Positions 18,815 to 27,091 of a DNA stretch of 64,000 nucleotides are shown piece by piece; the first letter of the stretch is position 1; each line of letters starts with the position of its first letter. The notes beneath the pieces are model-generated. The model was not told the DNA's origin and searched no databases. It saw nothing but the letters and a program-made list of their open reading frames with translations. This DNA is from Trypanosoma brucei (lineage: Eukaryota). The stretch spans positions 1,152,001-1,216,000 of the forward strand of contig CH464491.1 of assembly GCA_000002445.1 (NCBI GenBank), written 5' to 3'. The position numbers were made by a program, and so were the translations under genes.

Positions 18815-19292
18815 CATCCAATATTATAATTTTATTATGTTTACATGATTCTCAATACTTTTTACTTGGTTGTGGAAGATGTGGAGAAGGATGTGCACCT
18901 ATCGTGGAAATTAAATGCTGTGTCGCTGAAAAGGCGTTCAACGTATCCATTTTCCCTGTCGGAACTACCTCCTCCTCCCGCTGTTGTAGCAGCGAACACC
19001 AAATACGTGTCTTGTTACATTGTTTGGGACGTGGTCCTGGTGTGTGGAATGCGCCAGTGGTGTTCACTCATCAACCAAAAGATTAGTGTCGTTGTCTGTA
19101 TCCATAGGAAGCAAGTGTGTTGCGGAAGTTCCGTTTTAAGGGATCCTTGAGTGGATGAAGGTGTGGAAGAAATGGAAAGTGCGCACTGCGTGGCTGTTTC
19201 GGTGGCGCTGGACATAATGCAGGTTAGTGTCCCTCCAAATCTTACACAGTGCTCATCAGAATCAGAAAATAAGGAGGTTTTCAGTGCACCGT
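18815..19292. repeat. copy 1 of a 478-bp direct repeat, about 98.7% identical to 26614-27091
   Basis: Direct reading of the sequence and identical ORF-track translations (MILNTFYLVVEDVEKDVHLSWKL... vs MIFNTFYLVVEDVEEDVHLSWKL...) show the repeat. There are about 6 mismatches in 478 bp. Homology begins at catccaatattataatttt and ends at aggaggttttca(g/t)tgcaccgt. Confidence 0.9.
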
Positions 19293-21266
19293 TCCCCGTG
19301 GTAAATTTAGTAAATTCATGACTTCCGGAAATTTATATTAAAAAATACGGAACCGCTGCCATCTTCAAAGATGGGAGCAACAAGTGGCGGCACCTGTGGA
19401 CCCGTAGGTGTGGGAGGAAATGATGCAGAGTGATAATTCCAGCGCGTGCAAGGATTTGAGAACCTTAGTTGGCGCACGGTATTTTACAAGGTGCTGACCA
19501 TTTGGGGAACGAGCACAAAAGAAGTTGAATTGAGATAAGGGGAAGAGACACAAAGAGTGGTGAGGTGTCAGTTTGCTACAGATGTTAAGAAAAAGTATAG
19601 AAGAGATGAATGAATAGGTATAAAAAAATAGGAGGCTTTAAGCTTCTCGAAAGACCTTGAAGTTCCGCCAAACAGGGGCAACTTCATGAAAGCGCCATAC
19701 GGCTGGGAAGCGGACACTGGAGAGCCCCTGTTGTGGCTCATAACGCAACGCGCATTGTGAAGGCGTGCTATCTGGGCCGCCAAACACGAAGTTGGGGAGT
19801 CCTCCAGAAGAGATTCCATATTCTCATGCAGGTAGCGCAACAAGCGGTAAAGAAAGGCAGTGCTCGGCTGCGTGGTCTGTGGCGAAGATAAAAAATACCA
19901 GAAGGTGGGATCCACAGACCGATGCAGCGGGAACGTTTGGTACTGCCAAACGAAATGGGCAAAATATACGGCAGCCGTGCAAGGTCAGCGTCCAGTGGAA
20001 CCCATAGGGCCACGTAGAGCTCTCTCGACTGTTGCCCAGACGCCAGAAACCTCCTTGGAGCAGACACACTTGCTTAGAGGAGGGCAGCATGCTGACCAGT
20101 CAGGTGCTGGCGGGGATCACAATAAGAAAGGAAATCACGCACGCGCAGTATATGGTTCCGAACCCGCAAAAAAAAAAAGTCTAGCAGCACCGTGGTTAGC
20201 GAACTTGGTAAAAATAACATCGAAAAAATGCAGAACTTAAAAAAAAAAGCGAACCACGAGTTAAACGGGTAGAGGTGAAGACGTTGTACGACGACACTGA
20301 AATGTTTCTTCGAGGGAGCTCGAGTAAACCAAGCGCTCTATATCGGATGGTAGCGGACAACCACCGAAAGTTAGAAATAAACTCAATACCTCACTGGAAA
20401 CCGAATCAACTGTCTATAGAATAAATGGTGAATCAGCGTCTCCAAGGAATGATGCAATCAAAAGCATTAGTAGAAGCGCTAGCAGTAGTCCCTCTTTATT
20501 GAAACGTGAGGATTATAAGCACGGGCAAACGTTCGCCGACCCGAGAGCTGAAACAAAATGCGAGTGTACAGATGGTAGATGCATTGTTTCTACGGGTAGA
20601 GCGGCTATTCCAATTTCAATGCGGCGATCAGCCGTCTCAGCGGACACGAAAACCCTTCAGGTGGCGTTGAATGTATCTTTAGCTCTTGCATAAGTAATTC
20701 AAGACAAGCCCCTGACTGGTTTCGAAATCGATTGAACTGGTAATATGTTTTATATTATTATTATTATTTCTTTTTGATCAAGCATCAACGAGTGTCACAT
20801 TTTTCAAATTCATTCAACGGATCTGTTGCGGTGAGTCAGAACGATTGTTCAGAACTTTCTCTGCTGTTCTCATGGTACCTATGCAGCAGCGCAAGCACAG
20901 AGTTTGTTTTAGTATTTTTTCGGAGAAGCATTCAATACGCAGGGGGTTAGTTTGCTGTTATGGCGGGAGAATGGGTCCGCTTTTTTGTAAGGGTGCCCCA
21001 GAGGGACACAAGGGTTGTCTTCCTTACATGGGGGCAGAAGTCACTGTCGTGAGAAAGCGACTCACTATTCGACTGGGGAAAAAACGGCAGTGATGTGGGC
21101 TGGGTAGTAACGGTAGTTTCTCATTAGAATAATCATGGTTGTGGGCGTGCCTTGCACACTTAACGAAATATTAATGTTGTGTAGTAAGTGTAGAGGGTTT
21201 GTTGAACCCGAAACAGCGGGTCTGTTTGAGTGATAGTCATTTGCGTTACATGCCAATCGTACTCAC

Positions 21267-22379
21267 ATGATATGTCGTTTCCCTGTTGATATAAGTAAGG
21301 TGTGGGGCAACAAACGTTTTCAAGGGCAGTTATATCTTAATATGACTTCCGCAGGTCGTCCGCAGGTAACTCTTGACGAAAATTACACTGGAGAGGATGT
21401 GGGCAATTTGAGCCGCAGTGCCACTTTGGAATGCCTCACAGCCAAAAAGTGCGGAAAATTGAAGAGCGTGAAATTCGAAAAGGCAAAGAACCTCGTTTGC
21501 TTGCACGCCGAGAGTTGTGGAAAACTGAAAGTTATCGACGTGAGCTCTTGCTGCAAATTAGAGTCACTAACGGTCACGAAATGCAAAAATCTTAAAGAAG
21601 TGCATGGTCTTCCAGACGCATGTGAGTTGCTTGCTTTGAATTTATCTGGATGTGGAAAACTGGAACAGGTAGAGGGGTTATGTGCAACAAATATTAAGGT
21701 AAAGAAACTTAACTTGAGTGGCTGTAAGCTGTTGGAGCCTCTGGGAGTTTTGGGATGCTGCAAGAATGTGACAGAGTTGGATCTAAGTGGATGCAAAAAT
21801 ATCAACCAGAGCTCCATGGAGATAGCATGCAAAGAGCTCAACGGTCTGGAGACTCTGAAACTGAGCGGAGTTCCTACAGTATCAGATAATTGGGTTTGGT
21901 CCCTTGGGGTAAGCAACAGGTCTAACGCCAACCTGCTGTATTTGGACCTTTCTCGGTGCTTGGATATAGAAAATGCGGGGCCGTTGTCGATGATACGCTC
22001 CTTAAAGGAATTGTCTCTTGACGGCTGCACCAGCATTTCTAAGGGTTTGGAAGCGGTATGCGGTCTCCCCAACTTGAAGAAACTGTTATTGAGCAAAACG
22101 AAGGTAACAGATGAATGCCTCGAGAATATCAAAGGGAACAGAAACCTAGTGGTGCTTGGTTGCAGCGGGTGTCTAGGCATCAGCAGCATTTCGTGTATTG
22201 GGGAGGTAAAATCACTTGAAGAATTGTCCTTGGAGGGCTGCACTAACATTAAAAAAGGACTGGACATACTGCCTCGCCTTCCGAAACTTCAAAAATTGTG
22301 GATATGTGGCTTAAATGTTCCTGAAACAATAAAGCAAAAGCTAAAAACCCAGGGTGTCAAGACGAACCCACTCCGGTAG
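21267..22379 (+). CDS. leucine-rich repeat protein (LRRP), ESAG8-like cysteine-containing LRR type, short form (370 aa)
   Basis: There are at least 10 tandem ~23-25 aa repeats of the form L.LSGC..L..V/I..L (LNLSGCGKLEQVEGL, LDLSGCKNINQSS, LSLDGCTSISKGLEAV, LSLEGCTNIKKGLDIL). This is characteristic of the trypanosome LRRP/ESAG8 family. The antisense ORF 21383-22267 is spurious. Confidence 0.7.
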   Translation: MICRFPVDISKVWGNKRFQGQLYLNMTSAGRPQVTLDENYTGEDVGNLSRSATLECLTAKKCGKLKSVKFEKAKNLVCLHAESCGKLKVIDVSSCCKLESLTVTKCKNLKEVHGLPDACELLALNLSGCGKLEQVEGLCATNIKVKKLNLSGCKLLEPLGVLGCCKNVTELDLSGCKNINQSSMEIACKELNGLETLKLSGVPTVSDNWVWSLGVSNRSNANLLYLDLSRCLDIENAGPLSMIRSLKELSLDGCTSISKGLEAVCGLPNLKKLLLSKTKVTDECLENIKGNRNLVVLGCSGCLGISSISCIGEVKSLEELSLEGCTNIKKGLDILPRLPKLQKLWICGLNVPETIKQKLKTQGVKTNPLR

Positions 22380-25975: not shown

Positions 25976-26613
25976 GTTGGAGGTGGTTAGGAATCCTCCT
26001 ACGTATATATCCATTCCAATCAACCGGAATTTGGCAGGGGAAAATAGGTAACGAATAAGAGCAGTAAAGTAACGTGAGGAAAATGGTTTCAGAAAAAATA
26101 TTTTTTTAAAGGTCATGTCGGAAAGGGGGGATATATTGCCATAGAGAGATATTCATCCAACATGGCGGGGTAAGTCTCCGCCAGTAAAATTACTGTGATA
26201 TTTCTTAATTAAAGCGCATTGGGAGTGTTTCAATAATATGCGGTTGAGTTACCAGATTCTATACTCATATCCATTGTGCCTTCGCTTCGTAGGAAGGAGT
26301 TAATCTTCGAGAAACAATTCGTATCCATGGATCCCATCATATGGGAGGATAACTATGGAGTCGTCTTTTTTCAAGGGCATCCTGCTGCCGCAGCAACAGC
26401 AGCAGGAGGGCGGTGGAAAGTACAACTTTACTTAGGGACGCCTCCACTGCATGAATACCAGCGGAGCAAATAGTATGACCAACCATACTAGCATGTATAC
26501 TGTTTCAATGTCAGAATAAAAGGGGCACTAGCTACGGTAAAGCTCATTTCCCCTCTTTGCTTTAACTCTACCCCCAAAGGCGTGCGTACGATGCGCATTT
26601 ATCGTTTTGTCTT

Positions 26614-27091
26614 CATCCAATATTATAATTTTATTATGTTTACATGATTTTCAATACTTTTTACTTGGTTGTGGAAGATGTGGAGGAGGATGTGCACCTA
26701 TCGTGGAAATTAAATGCTGTGTCGCTGAAAAGGCGTTCAACGTATCCATTTTCCCTGTCGGAACTACCTCCTCCTCCCGCTGTTGTAGCAGCGAACACCA
26801 AATACGTGTCTTGTTACATTGTTTGGGACGTGGTCCTGGTGTGTGGAATGCGCCAGTGGTGTTCACTCATCAACCAAAAGATTAGTGTCGTTGTCTGTAT
26901 CCATAGGAAGCAAGTGTGTTGCGGAAGTTCCGTTTTAAGGGATCCTTGAGTGGATGAAGGTGTGGAAGAAATGGAAAGTGCGCACTGTGTGGCTGTTTCG
27001 GTGGCGCCGGACATAATGCAGGTTAGTGTCCCTCCAAATCTTACACAGTGCTCATCAGAACCAGAAAATAAGGAGGTTTTCATTGCACCGT
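26614..27091. repeat. copy 2 of the 478-bp direct repeat (offset +7799 bp from copy 1)
   Basis: See copy 1. The flanks outside the 478 bp are unrelated. Confidence 0.9.

What the first reader, a model, noticed from the sequence alone, without database searches (positions are those of the whole stretch)
18815..27091. 478-bp near-identical direct repeats bracket a 7.3-kb cassette of LRRP, GPI-type surface protein and secreted Cys-rich protein genes
The two copies (18815-19292 and 26614-27091) differ at only ~6 of 478 positions, while the sequence immediately outside them is unrelated. Such high identity implies recent duplication or ongoing gene conversion. Direct repeats of this size are substrates for homologous recombination, which could delete or circularise the intervening cassette or expand the LRRP array. 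The cassette holds exactly the lineage-specific, surface-related genes one expects to be copy-number variable. The repeat has no poly(A) tail and no reverse-transcriptase ORF, and I cannot assign it to RIME/ingi. It could be an uncharacterised recombination module associated with LRRP units.
Basis: seen in the sequence. Interest (0 to 1): 0.7.

Follow-up and report, generated by a model that had tools for sequence, protein, structure and literature searches.

The report
Direct repeats flanking a deletable gene island
Two near-identical 478-bp stretches bracket a three-gene surface-protein island on Trypanosoma brucei chromosome 11; they exchange sequence with each other, and in one sequenced human-infective strain the island is missing exactly between them, which is an ordinary consequence of homologous recombination rather than a new kind of element.

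Summary
Window 18815-19292 and 26614-27091 are 478-bp direct repeats ("R") with 6 mismatches and no homology beyond either edge. The window is T. brucei brucei TREU927 chromosome 11. The 7321-bp cassette holds LRRP Tb11.02.1564, hypothetical Tb11.02.1565 and a VSG-related gene.

- **Same structure elsewhere.** T. b. equiperdum IVM-t1 has both copies and the cassette. T. equiperdum OVI has all four junctions.
- **Single copy in one strain.** T. b. gambiense DAL972 has one R, and exactly 7799 bp (cassette plus one R) is absent.
- **Direction of the change.** Both flanks group DAL972 with IVM-t1 (0.08-0.23% apart) against 927/OVI (about 1%). The cassette itself differs 1.87% between the two groups. 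So the two-copy state is older, and DAL972 most likely lost the cassette by R x R recombination.
- **Gene conversion.** Seven informative sites group R copies by strain and none by position. The high identity therefore reflects conversion, not recent duplication.

R looks non-coding and unstructured. It has no poly(A) tail or target-site duplication, and no copy at the two other VR loci sampled.

This is a member of a known class: low-copy intergenic repeats (773 reported in T. brucei) and strain-variable VR islands. Genome-wide copy number could not be measured here.

The parts
18815..19292 (+). Repeat copy R_A (478 bp), 1.7 kb downstream of the Ctu2-like gene
   Evidence: Orthologous copies lie at L003:13348-13825 (IVM-t1), and at L002:13345-13417 plus L005:1-41 (OVI). 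It is a mosaic of the two R haplotypes.
19293..26613 (+). 7321-bp cassette (strain-variable island) between the repeats
   Evidence: Present and collinear in IVM-t1 (98.3% over the region; 1.87% substitutions within the cassette). Present in OVI in two pieces. Absent from DAL972.
21267..22379 (+). LRRP gene Tb11.02.1564 (370 aa)
   Evidence: Exact match to XP_828485. Pfam LRR_4. Intact but unannotated in IVM-t1 and OVI. Reported as 5.1-fold up in bloodstream forms (PMC2771046).
23213..23887 (+). Tb11.02.1565, 224-aa protein with a hydrophobic N-terminus (signal-peptide type) and a hydrophobic C-terminal tail (GPI-signal type)
   Evidence: Paralogues are Tb927.8.7310 and Tb927.8.7330 at 50-54% identity. 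It carries a hypervariable patch between strains.
24905..25975 (+). VSG-related (VR) gene, 356 aa, VSG_B N-terminal domain only
   Evidence: Pfam PF13206, E = 1.7e-69. XP_828487. Nearest paralogues are 47% and 38-41% identical. Called Tb11.02.1566 in PMC2771046 and reported 8-fold up in bloodstream forms; linking that identifier to this ORF rests on annotation order and product name, not on a direct lookup.
26614..27091 (+). Repeat copy R_B (478 bp), 1.14 kb upstream of LRRP Tb11.02.1580
   Evidence: Orthologues at L002:15056-15533 (OVI, 1 difference) and L003:21154-21631 (IVM-t1).
19293..27091 (.). The 7799-bp interval missing from T. b. gambiense DAL972 (equivalently 18815-26613). The single remaining R is L001:13348-13825.
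   Evidence: L001:1-13825 matches window 5474-19292, and L001:13348-21647 matches window 26614-34885. The overlap is exactly 478 bp, and the locus contains no Ns (same result with L006).
15470..17116 (+). Left neighbour: Ctu2-like gene (cytoplasmic tRNA 2-thiolation protein 2)
   Evidence: Used as the anchor to fetch the orthologous loci.
28234..29466 (+). Right neighbour: LRRP Tb11.02.1580 (410 aa), the last gene of the + strand transcription unit
   Evidence: Identical protein in DAL972 and IVM-t1. Only 31-35% identical to the cassette LRRP.
29467..31243 (.). Convergent strand-switch region (+ strand genes end, - strand genes begin)
   Evidence: ORF map. GC-skew sign change at about 30 kb. 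No tRNA or Rfam hit.

Best explanation
R is an ordinary, non-coding, low-copy intergenic segment present twice in direct orientation around a VSG-related/LRRP gene island near the end of a polycistronic transcription unit. The two copies act passively as substrates for the cell's general homologous-recombination machinery, with two outcomes. (1) Non-crossover gene conversion repeatedly copies sequence from one R to the other, in both directions. This keeps them about 99% identical even though the duplication is older than the divergence of the sampled T. brucei haplotypes. (2) A crossover or single-strand annealing between the copies removes the cassette plus one R and leaves a single R. This most likely happened in the lineage leading to T. 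b. gambiense DAL972, from a parent haplotype like that of IVM-t1 in which the copies were already almost identical. Shown: the repeat, its sharp edges, the exact single-R allele, the local genealogy and the concerted-evolution site pattern. Inferred: the molecular pathway (RAD51-dependent recombination or single-strand annealing) and how the 478-bp duplication first arose.
For: Structure.
Single-R allele: in DAL972, exactly 7799 bp is absent, the junction falls inside one 478-bp R, and the locus has no Ns. No DAL972 protein falls in the >=90% identity clusters of the three cassette proteins, and none appears among the homologues of the VR gene or of 1565.
Polarity: in the left flank (13.3 kb), DAL-IVM differ by 0.23% and 927-OVI by 0.38%, against about 1.0% between the two groups. 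In the right flank (2.47 kb), DAL-IVM differ by 0.08%, and 18 of 18 informative sites group (927,OVI)|(DAL,IVM). The cassette differs 1.87% between 927 and IVM-t1 and has identical junctions in both. It was therefore in place before the two groups split, and DAL972's closest relative carries it.
Gene conversion: among 927_A, 927_B, IVM_A and IVM_B, 7 informative sites (R positions 9, 13, 115, 116, 199, 220, 291) group copies by strain and 0 by position. Within-genome differences are 6 and 2, against 8 and 14 between orthologous copies. 927_A is a mosaic of the two haplotypes.
Not an element: no homologue of the internal 101-aa ORF was found. Variable sites are 8 non-synonymous to 1 synonymous in the + ORF and 4 to 2 in the - ORF. 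There is no target-site duplication, microhomology or A-tail. The RNA fold z-score is -0.24 and there is no Rfam family.
Precedent: 773 intergenic direct or inverted repeats with PCR-confirmed rearrangements are reported in T. brucei (PMC4028189). VSG/VR islands are among the main indel sources between 927 and DAL972 (PMC2854126).
Against: Only four assemblies could be compared. The DAL972 single-R allele rests on one draft assembly, and a collapse of the repeat cannot be excluded without reads. No true outgroup was available, so the polarity rests on local haplotype genealogy and parsimony. T. brucei recombines sexually, so the single-R allele could be an old segregating variant rather than a change specific to the gambiense lineage. 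Genome-wide copy number of R could not be measured because TREU927 is not indexed in the locus tools. The razor-sharp repeat edges are not explained by conversion alone. The event that first created the duplication remains unknown.
Confidence: 0.78

Rival explanations
1. The single-R state (DAL972) is ancestral. The cassette entered by single-crossover integration of a circular DNA (R' plus cassette) at the resident R, or by a replicative template-switch insertion that duplicated 478 bp.
For: This is the exact reverse of the deletion and gives the same structure. The razor-sharp repeat edges and the total lack of flanking homology fit a single discrete event. Some such event must have created the duplication at some time. 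The DAL972 R carries A-type bases at all six 927 A/B differences.
Against: The cassette and both junctions are shared by two haplotype groups about 1% apart, and the cassette itself is 1.87% diverged between them. DAL972 is nested next to the cassette-bearing IVM-t1 haplotype on both flanks (0.08-0.23%). For the DAL972 allele this model therefore needs an insertion followed by loss anyway, or an unsampled recombinant history. No donor locus exists among annotated proteins; the nearest paralogues are 47-54% identical.
Confidence: 0.07
2. The DAL972 single-R allele is an assembly collapse of the two repeats. The strain really has the cassette, and there is no natural deletion.
For: DAL972 is a draft assembly ordered against 927. 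Its authors note that many indels coincide with gaps and that repetitive regions are hard to resolve (PMC2854126). Only one assembly shows the single-R state.
Against: There are no Ns anywhere in the 21.6-kb locus, and the junction is base-perfect. A collapse would leave 7.3 kb of unique sequence and three genes unplaced. No DAL972 protein falls in the >=90% clusters of any of the three cassette proteins or among the homologues found for two of them, whereas IVM-t1, OVI and EATRO1125 homologues were found. The paralogous chromosome 8 VR island is independently reported as absent from DAL972 and T. evansi (PMC4288722), so such losses do occur.
Confidence: 0.07
3. R is a fragment of a dispersed repeat family (RIME/ingi/SIDER-like or another uncharacterised element) that happens to occur twice here.
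For: Genome-wide copy number could not be measured. The conserved 5' signature of ingi/RIME could not be compared because no reference sequence was available in the tools.
Against: There is no A-rich tail and no target-site duplication. No ORF in R has homologues. R occurs only twice in 64 kb. It is absent from the DAL972 chromosome 3 VR/LRRP locus by blastn, and three 40-mer probes found no near-identical copy at the OVI VR-361 locus, about 37 kb in all. The copy that seemed extra in an OVI contig is the orthologous R_A tail. Both copies have identical, complete 478-bp extents, unlike typical decayed retroposon fragments.
Confidence: 0.05
4. R is kept identical by selection because it carries RNA-processing or regulatory signals (a polypyrimidine tract plus AG splice-acceptor region that also sets upstream polyadenylation). 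Both the gene before the cassette and the last cassette gene would then be processed correctly.
For: R contains pyrimidine tracts at R positions 136-143 and 154-165 (TTTTCCCT, CCTCCTCCTCCC) followed by AG dinucleotides on the transcribed strand. It lies in the intergenic position where such signals are expected.
Against: Fifteen of 478 sites vary among six copies (3.1%), similar to or above neutral flank divergence, so there is no sign of constraint. Such tracts are common in trypanosome intergenic DNA. No transcript data were available. This reading is compatible with, and not needed for, the recombination explanation.
Confidence: 0.1

Closest known systems
Low-copy intergenic direct/inverted repeats of trypanosomatids that mediate gene rearrangement (Ubeda et al. 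2014, PMC4028189)
   Same: Non-coding repeats of a few hundred bp in direct orientation flank a gene block, and homologous recombination between them deletes or circularises the block. The paper reports 773 such repeats in T. brucei, with PCR-confirmed rearrangement at selected pairs.
   Different: In Leishmania the products are maintained and amplified as episomes under selection. No amplification is known in T. brucei. Here the evidence is a fixed germline-type deletion allele in one strain plus concerted evolution, not a subpopulation PCR product. Whether this pair is among the 773 was not checked.
Core-chromosome VSG/ESAG/VR 'islands' that differ between T. brucei strains (Jackson et al. 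2010, PMC2854126; Carnes et al. 2015, PMC4288722)
   Same: A VR gene with partner genes lies in a chromosome-internal position next to a strand switch and is present in some strains and absent in DAL972. The paralogous Tb927.8.7300-7330 VR/hypothetical island is likewise absent from DAL972 and T. evansi STIB805.
   Different: In the text read here, those papers do not name this chromosome 11 island or describe flanking direct repeats as the deletion mechanism.
Solo-LTR formation by LTR x LTR recombination
   Same: Two direct repeats flank an internal segment, unequal or intrachromosomal recombination leaves a single repeat, and the repeats homogenise by conversion.
   Different: R has no TG...CA termini and no target-site duplication, and the internal segment carries ordinary cellular genes rather than gag/pol. 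It works like solo-LTR formation, but R is not an LTR element.
AQP2/AQP3 chimera and deletion alleles in T. brucei (own knowledge; related title PMC3794916 listed but not read)
   Same: Recombination between adjacent direct repeats on a T. brucei core chromosome produces natural deletion alleles that differ between isolates.
   Different: There the repeats are the paralogous coding sequences themselves, and the outcome has a drug-resistance phenotype. Here the repeats are non-coding, and the lost genes have no known phenotype.

Membership tests
ingi/RIME/SIDER non-LTR retroposons | A-rich or poly(A) 3' tail | tested here: not met
   R ends ...GGTTTTCAGTGCACCGT on the + strand and begins CATCCAATATT. 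There is no A-run (or T-run for the other orientation) at either end.
ingi/RIME/SIDER non-LTR retroposons | Target-site duplication flanking each insertion (about 12 bp for ingi/RIME) | tested here: not met
   The 25 bp on each side of both copies, and of the single DAL972 R, show no direct repeat (alignment).
ingi/RIME/SIDER non-LTR retroposons | Conserved 5' signature (about 79 nt) shared by ingi, RIME, DIRE and SIDER | not testable with these tools
   No reference sequence of these elements is available in the tools, and none was retrieved from the literature.
ingi/RIME/SIDER non-LTR retroposons | Many dispersed genomic copies | tested here: inconclusive
   R occurs only twice in the 64-kb window. 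blastn (word 7) finds none in the DAL972 chromosome 3 VR/LRRP locus, and three 40-mer probes with up to 3 mismatches find none in the OVI VR-361 locus, which would miss copies below about 90% identity. The whole genome could not be searched.
ingi/RIME/SIDER non-LTR retroposons | Reverse-transcriptase/endonuclease ORF or its remnants (ingi) | tested here: not met
   The 101-aa ORF has no Pfam hit and no homologue among 5.8 billion proteins. Substitutions are 8 non-synonymous to 1 synonymous. The other five reading frames were not searched against the protein database.
Recombinogenic low-copy intergenic direct repeats (Ubeda 2014 class) | Two or more highly similar copies in direct orientation on one chromosome, in intergenic DNA | tested here: met
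   478 bp at 98.7% identity, both on the + strand, 7799 bp apart, between annotated genes.
Recombinogenic low-copy intergenic direct repeats (Ubeda 2014 class) | A rearrangement product whose junction lies within the repeat | tested here: met
   The DAL972 allele reads left flank - one R - right flank, base-perfect. A circular product was not testable.
Strain-variable core-chromosome VR/VSG island | VSG-family gene in a non-subtelomeric, otherwise syntenic context | tested here: met
   A VSG_B-domain gene lies between conserved housekeeping neighbours that are collinear in four assemblies.
Strain-variable core-chromosome VR/VSG island | Presence/absence polymorphism between strains or subspecies | tested here: met
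   Present in 927, IVM-t1 and OVI. An EATRO1125 VR protein is 98% identical. Absent in DAL972.
Recent tandem duplication of an R + LRRP unit | Homology extending from the repeat into the adjacent LRRP genes and spacers | tested here: not met
   The LRRPs are 31-35% identical. The spacers score no better than shuffled sequence. The distance from R to the ATG differs (1974 versus 1142 bp).
LTR retroelement (solo-LTR analogy) | TG...CA termini, short target-site duplication, internal gag/pol | tested here: not met
   The termini are CA...GT, there is no target-site duplication, and the internal genes are an LRRP, a surface-type protein and a VR gene.

The most novel reading that the evidence does not exclude
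The R pair might be more than a passive substrate. It could be a reversible excision/integration site through which the bloodstream-stage LRRP/surface-protein/VR cassette pops out as a circle and re-enters. Alternatively, R could be a selected RNA-processing module whose duplication lets cassettes be slotted into the end of a transcription unit. Either would give T. brucei a cassette-exchange system for chromosome-internal VR islands at convergent strand switches.
Probability: 0.05. Interest if true: 0.65.

Novelty: new member of a known kind. Interest (0 to 1): 0.3.

Why it matters
It gives a base-resolved natural example, in T. brucei, of two processes usually inferred only indirectly in this organism. 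One is concerted evolution of short non-coding repeats by gene conversion. The other is repeat-mediated loss of a block of bloodstream-stage surface-related genes. The deletion may be a convenient PCR marker separating the DAL972-type haplotype from cassette-bearing T. brucei. It also shows that these three genes (an LRRP, a GPI-type protein and a VR protein) are dispensable in at least one human-infective lineage. It does not reveal a new mechanism.

Tried and rejected
**Searches that found nothing**
- A protein search with the 101-aa ORF inside R found nothing. Exact look-ups of ten small ORFs around R, from the 927 and DAL972 sequences, found only the annotated 126-aa 'hypothetical protein, unlikely'. 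Short-read (Logan) contigs therefore could not be recruited to confirm the single-R junction in other isolates.
- Rfam at gathering and at permissive thresholds, plus ARAGORN, gave nothing. RNA folding gave z = -0.24.

- TREU927 itself is not in the gene-position index. Look-ups of the 927 chromosome 8 and chromosome 3 VR paralogues failed. DAL972 and OVI loci were used instead.
- Some loci fetched in parallel calls (L003, L005, L007) never reached the Python sandbox. L003 and L005 were rebuilt through dummy alignments, and L007 was compared directly with DNA alignment.
- The bacterial promoter/terminator scan is irrelevant for a trypanosome and was ignored.

**Leads rejected**
- An apparent third copy of R at the start of OVI contig CZPT02000251.1 turned out to be the orthologous R_A tail plus the cassette's left part, joined through 71 Ns to the chromosome 8-type VR locus. 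This is a probable mis-scaffold.
- Guessing current gene IDs (Tb927.11.4690-4740) was wrong, and the mapping was abandoned.
- The supplement held for the gambiense genome paper does not mention these genes.
- A literature search linking the locus to base J/H3.V termination gave nothing specific.

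
Full report
**1.

The repeat finder, MAFFT, an ungapped scan and blastn all show one direct repeat pair, 18815-19292 and 26614-27091. It is 478 bp long with 6 mismatches and no indels. Identity drops to background at the first base outside each edge. A word-7 blastn of the sequence upstream and downstream of the two copies scores no better than shuffled controls. 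This is the only repeat longer than 60 bp in the 64-kb window.

**2. Where we are**

Exact protein look-ups place the window on chromosome 11 of Trypanosoma brucei brucei TREU927. The gene order on the + strand is:

| Feature | Window coordinates |
|---|---|
| Ctu2-like gene | 15470-17116 |
| R_A | 18815-19292 |
| LRRP Tb11.02.1564 | 21267-22379 |
| Hypothetical Tb11.02.1565 | 23213-23887 |
| VSG-related gene with a VSG_B domain | 24905-25975 |
| R_B | 26614-27091 |
| 126-aa 'hypothetical protein, unlikely' | 27716-28096 |
| LRRP Tb11.02.1580 | 28234-29466 |

Pfam supports the LRR and VSG_B assignments. From about 31.2 kb all long ORFs lie on the - strand, so the cassette sits just before a convergent strand switch.

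Tb11.02.1565 has a hydrophobic N-terminus typical of a signal peptide and a hydrophobic C-terminal tail. The VR protein has 13 Cys and no such tail.

Published microarray data report Tb11.02.1564, Tb11.02.1566 and Tb11.02.1580 as 5.1-, 8- and 2.2-fold higher in bloodstream than in procyclic forms (PMC2771046). I take Tb11.02.1566 to be the VR gene from its product name and its place in the annotation order, not from a direct look-up.

**3. Other strains**

The orthologous loci were fetched using the Ctu2 and LRRP-410 orthologues as anchors.

- **T. b. equiperdum IVM-t1.** The locus is collinear with window 5451-27107 at 98.3%. It has both R copies 7806 bp apart and the whole cassette.
- **T. 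equiperdum OVI.** The chromosome 11 scaffold breaks at a 10-N gap 73 bp into R_A. It resumes inside the VR gene and then carries a complete R_B. A separate OVI contig starts with the last 41 bp of R_A and continues through 4.9 kb of cassette. All four junctions are therefore present in OVI.
- **T. b. gambiense DAL972.** L001:1-13825 matches the window up to 19292, and L001:13348-21647 matches the window from 26614. The two matches overlap by exactly the 478 bp of a single R, and the locus has no Ns. Exactly 7799 bp, the cassette plus one R, is missing. No DAL972 protein falls in the >=90% identity clusters of the three cassette proteins. None appears among the homologues of the VR gene or of 1565 either.

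**4. Direction of the change**

Substitution distances in the flanks give the same local genealogy on both sides.

| Region | DAL-IVM | 927-OVI | Between groups |
|---|---|---|---|
| Left flank, 13.3 kb | 0.23% | 0.38% | about 1.0% |
| Right flank, 2.47 kb | 0.08% | 0.36% | 0.8-1.1% |

In the right flank, 18 of 18 informative sites support (927,OVI)|(DAL,IVM), and the DAL/IVM pair also shares indels. The cassette differs by 1.87% between 927 and IVM-t1 and has the same junctions in both. The two-copy arrangement therefore predates the split of the two haplotype groups.

DAL972's nearest relative at this locus carries the cassette. The most economical reading is a deletion in the DAL972 lineage. 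In IVM-t1 the two R copies differ at only 2 sites, and the DAL972 R differs from them at 2 and 4 sites. A crossover anywhere within R in such a parent would give the observed single R.

**5. Why the copies are so alike**

Six R copies show 15 variable sites. Among 927_A, 927_B, IVM_A and IVM_B, seven sites (R positions 9, 13, 115, 116, 199, 220, 291) have the pattern 'both copies of one strain versus both copies of the other'. No site has the pattern 'A copies versus B copies'.

Paralogous differences within a genome (6 and 2) are smaller than orthologous differences between genomes (8 for A, 14 for B). Because the duplication predates the strain split, this pattern requires sequence transfer between the copies after the split, which is gene conversion.

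927_A is a visible mosaic. It matches 927_B/OVI_B at positions 9, 13, 115, 116, 220 and 291. It matches the DAL/IVM type at positions 73 and 395-470. Recent duplication is therefore rejected and ongoing conversion is supported.

**6. What R is not**

- **Not coding.** The 101-aa ORF inside R is not in the protein collection and has no homologue. Variable sites in it are 8 non-synonymous to 1 synonymous. In the 137-aa minus-strand ORF that overlaps R_B the ratio is 4 to 2.
- **Not a structured RNA.** There is no Rfam family, and predicted RNA stability equals that of shuffles.
- **No retroposon hallmarks.** R has no A-tail, no target-site duplication and no junction microhomology.
- **Not tied to an LRRP unit.** The two LRRP genes are only 31-35% identical, so this is not a young tandem duplication of an R + LRRP unit.
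- **No recent donor locus.** The closest paralogues are 47% identical for the VR gene (chromosome 8) and 50-54% for Tb11.02.1565 (Tb927.8.7310/7330).
- **Not found at other VR loci sampled.** blastn (word 7) found no R in a DAL972 chromosome 3 VR/LRRP locus. Three 40-mer probes with up to 3 mismatches found none in the OVI VR-361 locus; that test would miss copies below about 90% identity.

**7. Mechanism and what remains open**

The data fit passive, homology-driven recombination. Conversion keeps the copies alike, and a crossover or single-strand annealing removes the interval. The enzymology was not tested.

How the 478-bp duplication first arose remains unexplained. The razor-sharp edges suggest one discrete event, such as integration of a circle carrying R or a template-switch insertion, rather than an old tandem duplication trimmed by divergence.

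R contains pyrimidine tracts followed by AG dinucleotides. It could therefore carry trans-splicing or polyadenylation signals. The copies show no reduced diversity, however, and no transcript data were available.

**8. Comparison with what is known**

- Ubeda et al. 2014 report 773 intergenic direct or inverted repeats in T. brucei that could support rearrangements, with PCR-confirmed junctions at selected pairs. They note that amplification, unlike in Leishmania, is not seen in T. brucei (PMC4028189).
- Jackson et al. 2010 list transposable elements and VSG/ESAG/VR islands as the main indel sources between 927 and DAL972. Of 17 islands, 6 were unique to one subspecies (PMC2854126).
- Carnes et al. 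[quoted passage not shown]

This locus is thus a new, well-resolved member of known classes. The specific points I did not find in the papers read are the flanking 478-bp repeats, the exact deletion junction and the concerted evolution.

**9. Caveats**

- Only four assemblies were available.
- The single-R allele rests on one draft assembly.
- There is no outgroup.
- Genome-wide copy number of R was not measurable with these tools.

**10. Verdict**

The feature is real and correctly described. The suggestion of a dedicated LRRP-linked recombination module is not supported. Interest is modest.

Noticed in passing
window 23244-23740 (inside Tb11.02.1565): There is a hypervariable patch. 927 versus OVI shows 37 differences in 500 bp, while the rest of the cassette's left 4.9 kb mostly shows 0-4 per 500 bp (10 in the first 500 bp). 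The proteins are only 91% identical. The 927-IVM and IVM-OVI comparisons are also elevated there. This suggests diversifying selection or conversion from paralogues in a predicted GPI-type surface protein.
   Followed up: partly
window 24533-25113 versus L005:5054-5634: The 372 bp upstream of the chromosome 11 VR gene plus its first 209 bp of coding sequence are 92.6% identical to the chromosome 8-type VR-361 gene of OVI. The rest of the two genes falls to 67% or is undetectable, and the proteins are 47% identical overall. The VR genes are mosaics, which implies exchange between chromosomes limited to the 5' region.
   Followed up: partly
L005 (OVI contig CZPT02000251.1) 1-4982 / Ns 4983-5053 / 5054-16511; L002:13418-13427: The OVI assembly appears mis-scaffolded. 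The left 4.9 kb of the chromosome 11 cassette is joined through 71 Ns to the chromosome 8-type VR locus, while the chromosome 11 scaffold has a 10-N gap where that piece belongs.
   Followed up: yes
window about 29467-31243; also L004 and L005: The cassette sits at the last-but-one position of a + strand transcription unit, just before a convergent strand switch. The two other VR loci fetched (DAL972 chromosome 3, OVI VR-361) also end a + strand gene run directly before - strand genes. VR islands may preferentially occupy the ends of transcription units.
   Followed up: no
L003:15802-16914 and L005:2013-3125: The LRRP Tb11.02.1564 orthologue is intact (370 codons, 99.7% identical) in IVM-t1 and OVI, but no gene is called there in either annotation.
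   Followed up: yes
window 26814-27227 (- strand) and L001:13548-13961 (- strand): A 137-aa ORF starts in the right flank and runs into R_B. It is open in both 927 and DAL972 but is in no protein collection. Its 4 non-synonymous to 2 synonymous changes give no sign of coding constraint.
   Followed up: partly
window 27716-28096 versus L001:14449-14712: The annotated 126-aa 'hypothetical protein, unlikely' (EAN79376) is conserved in OVI. In DAL972 the corresponding ORF is only 87 aa, and a 4-bp deletion shared with IVM-t1 lies in this region. This is consistent with it not being a real gene.
   Followed up: no
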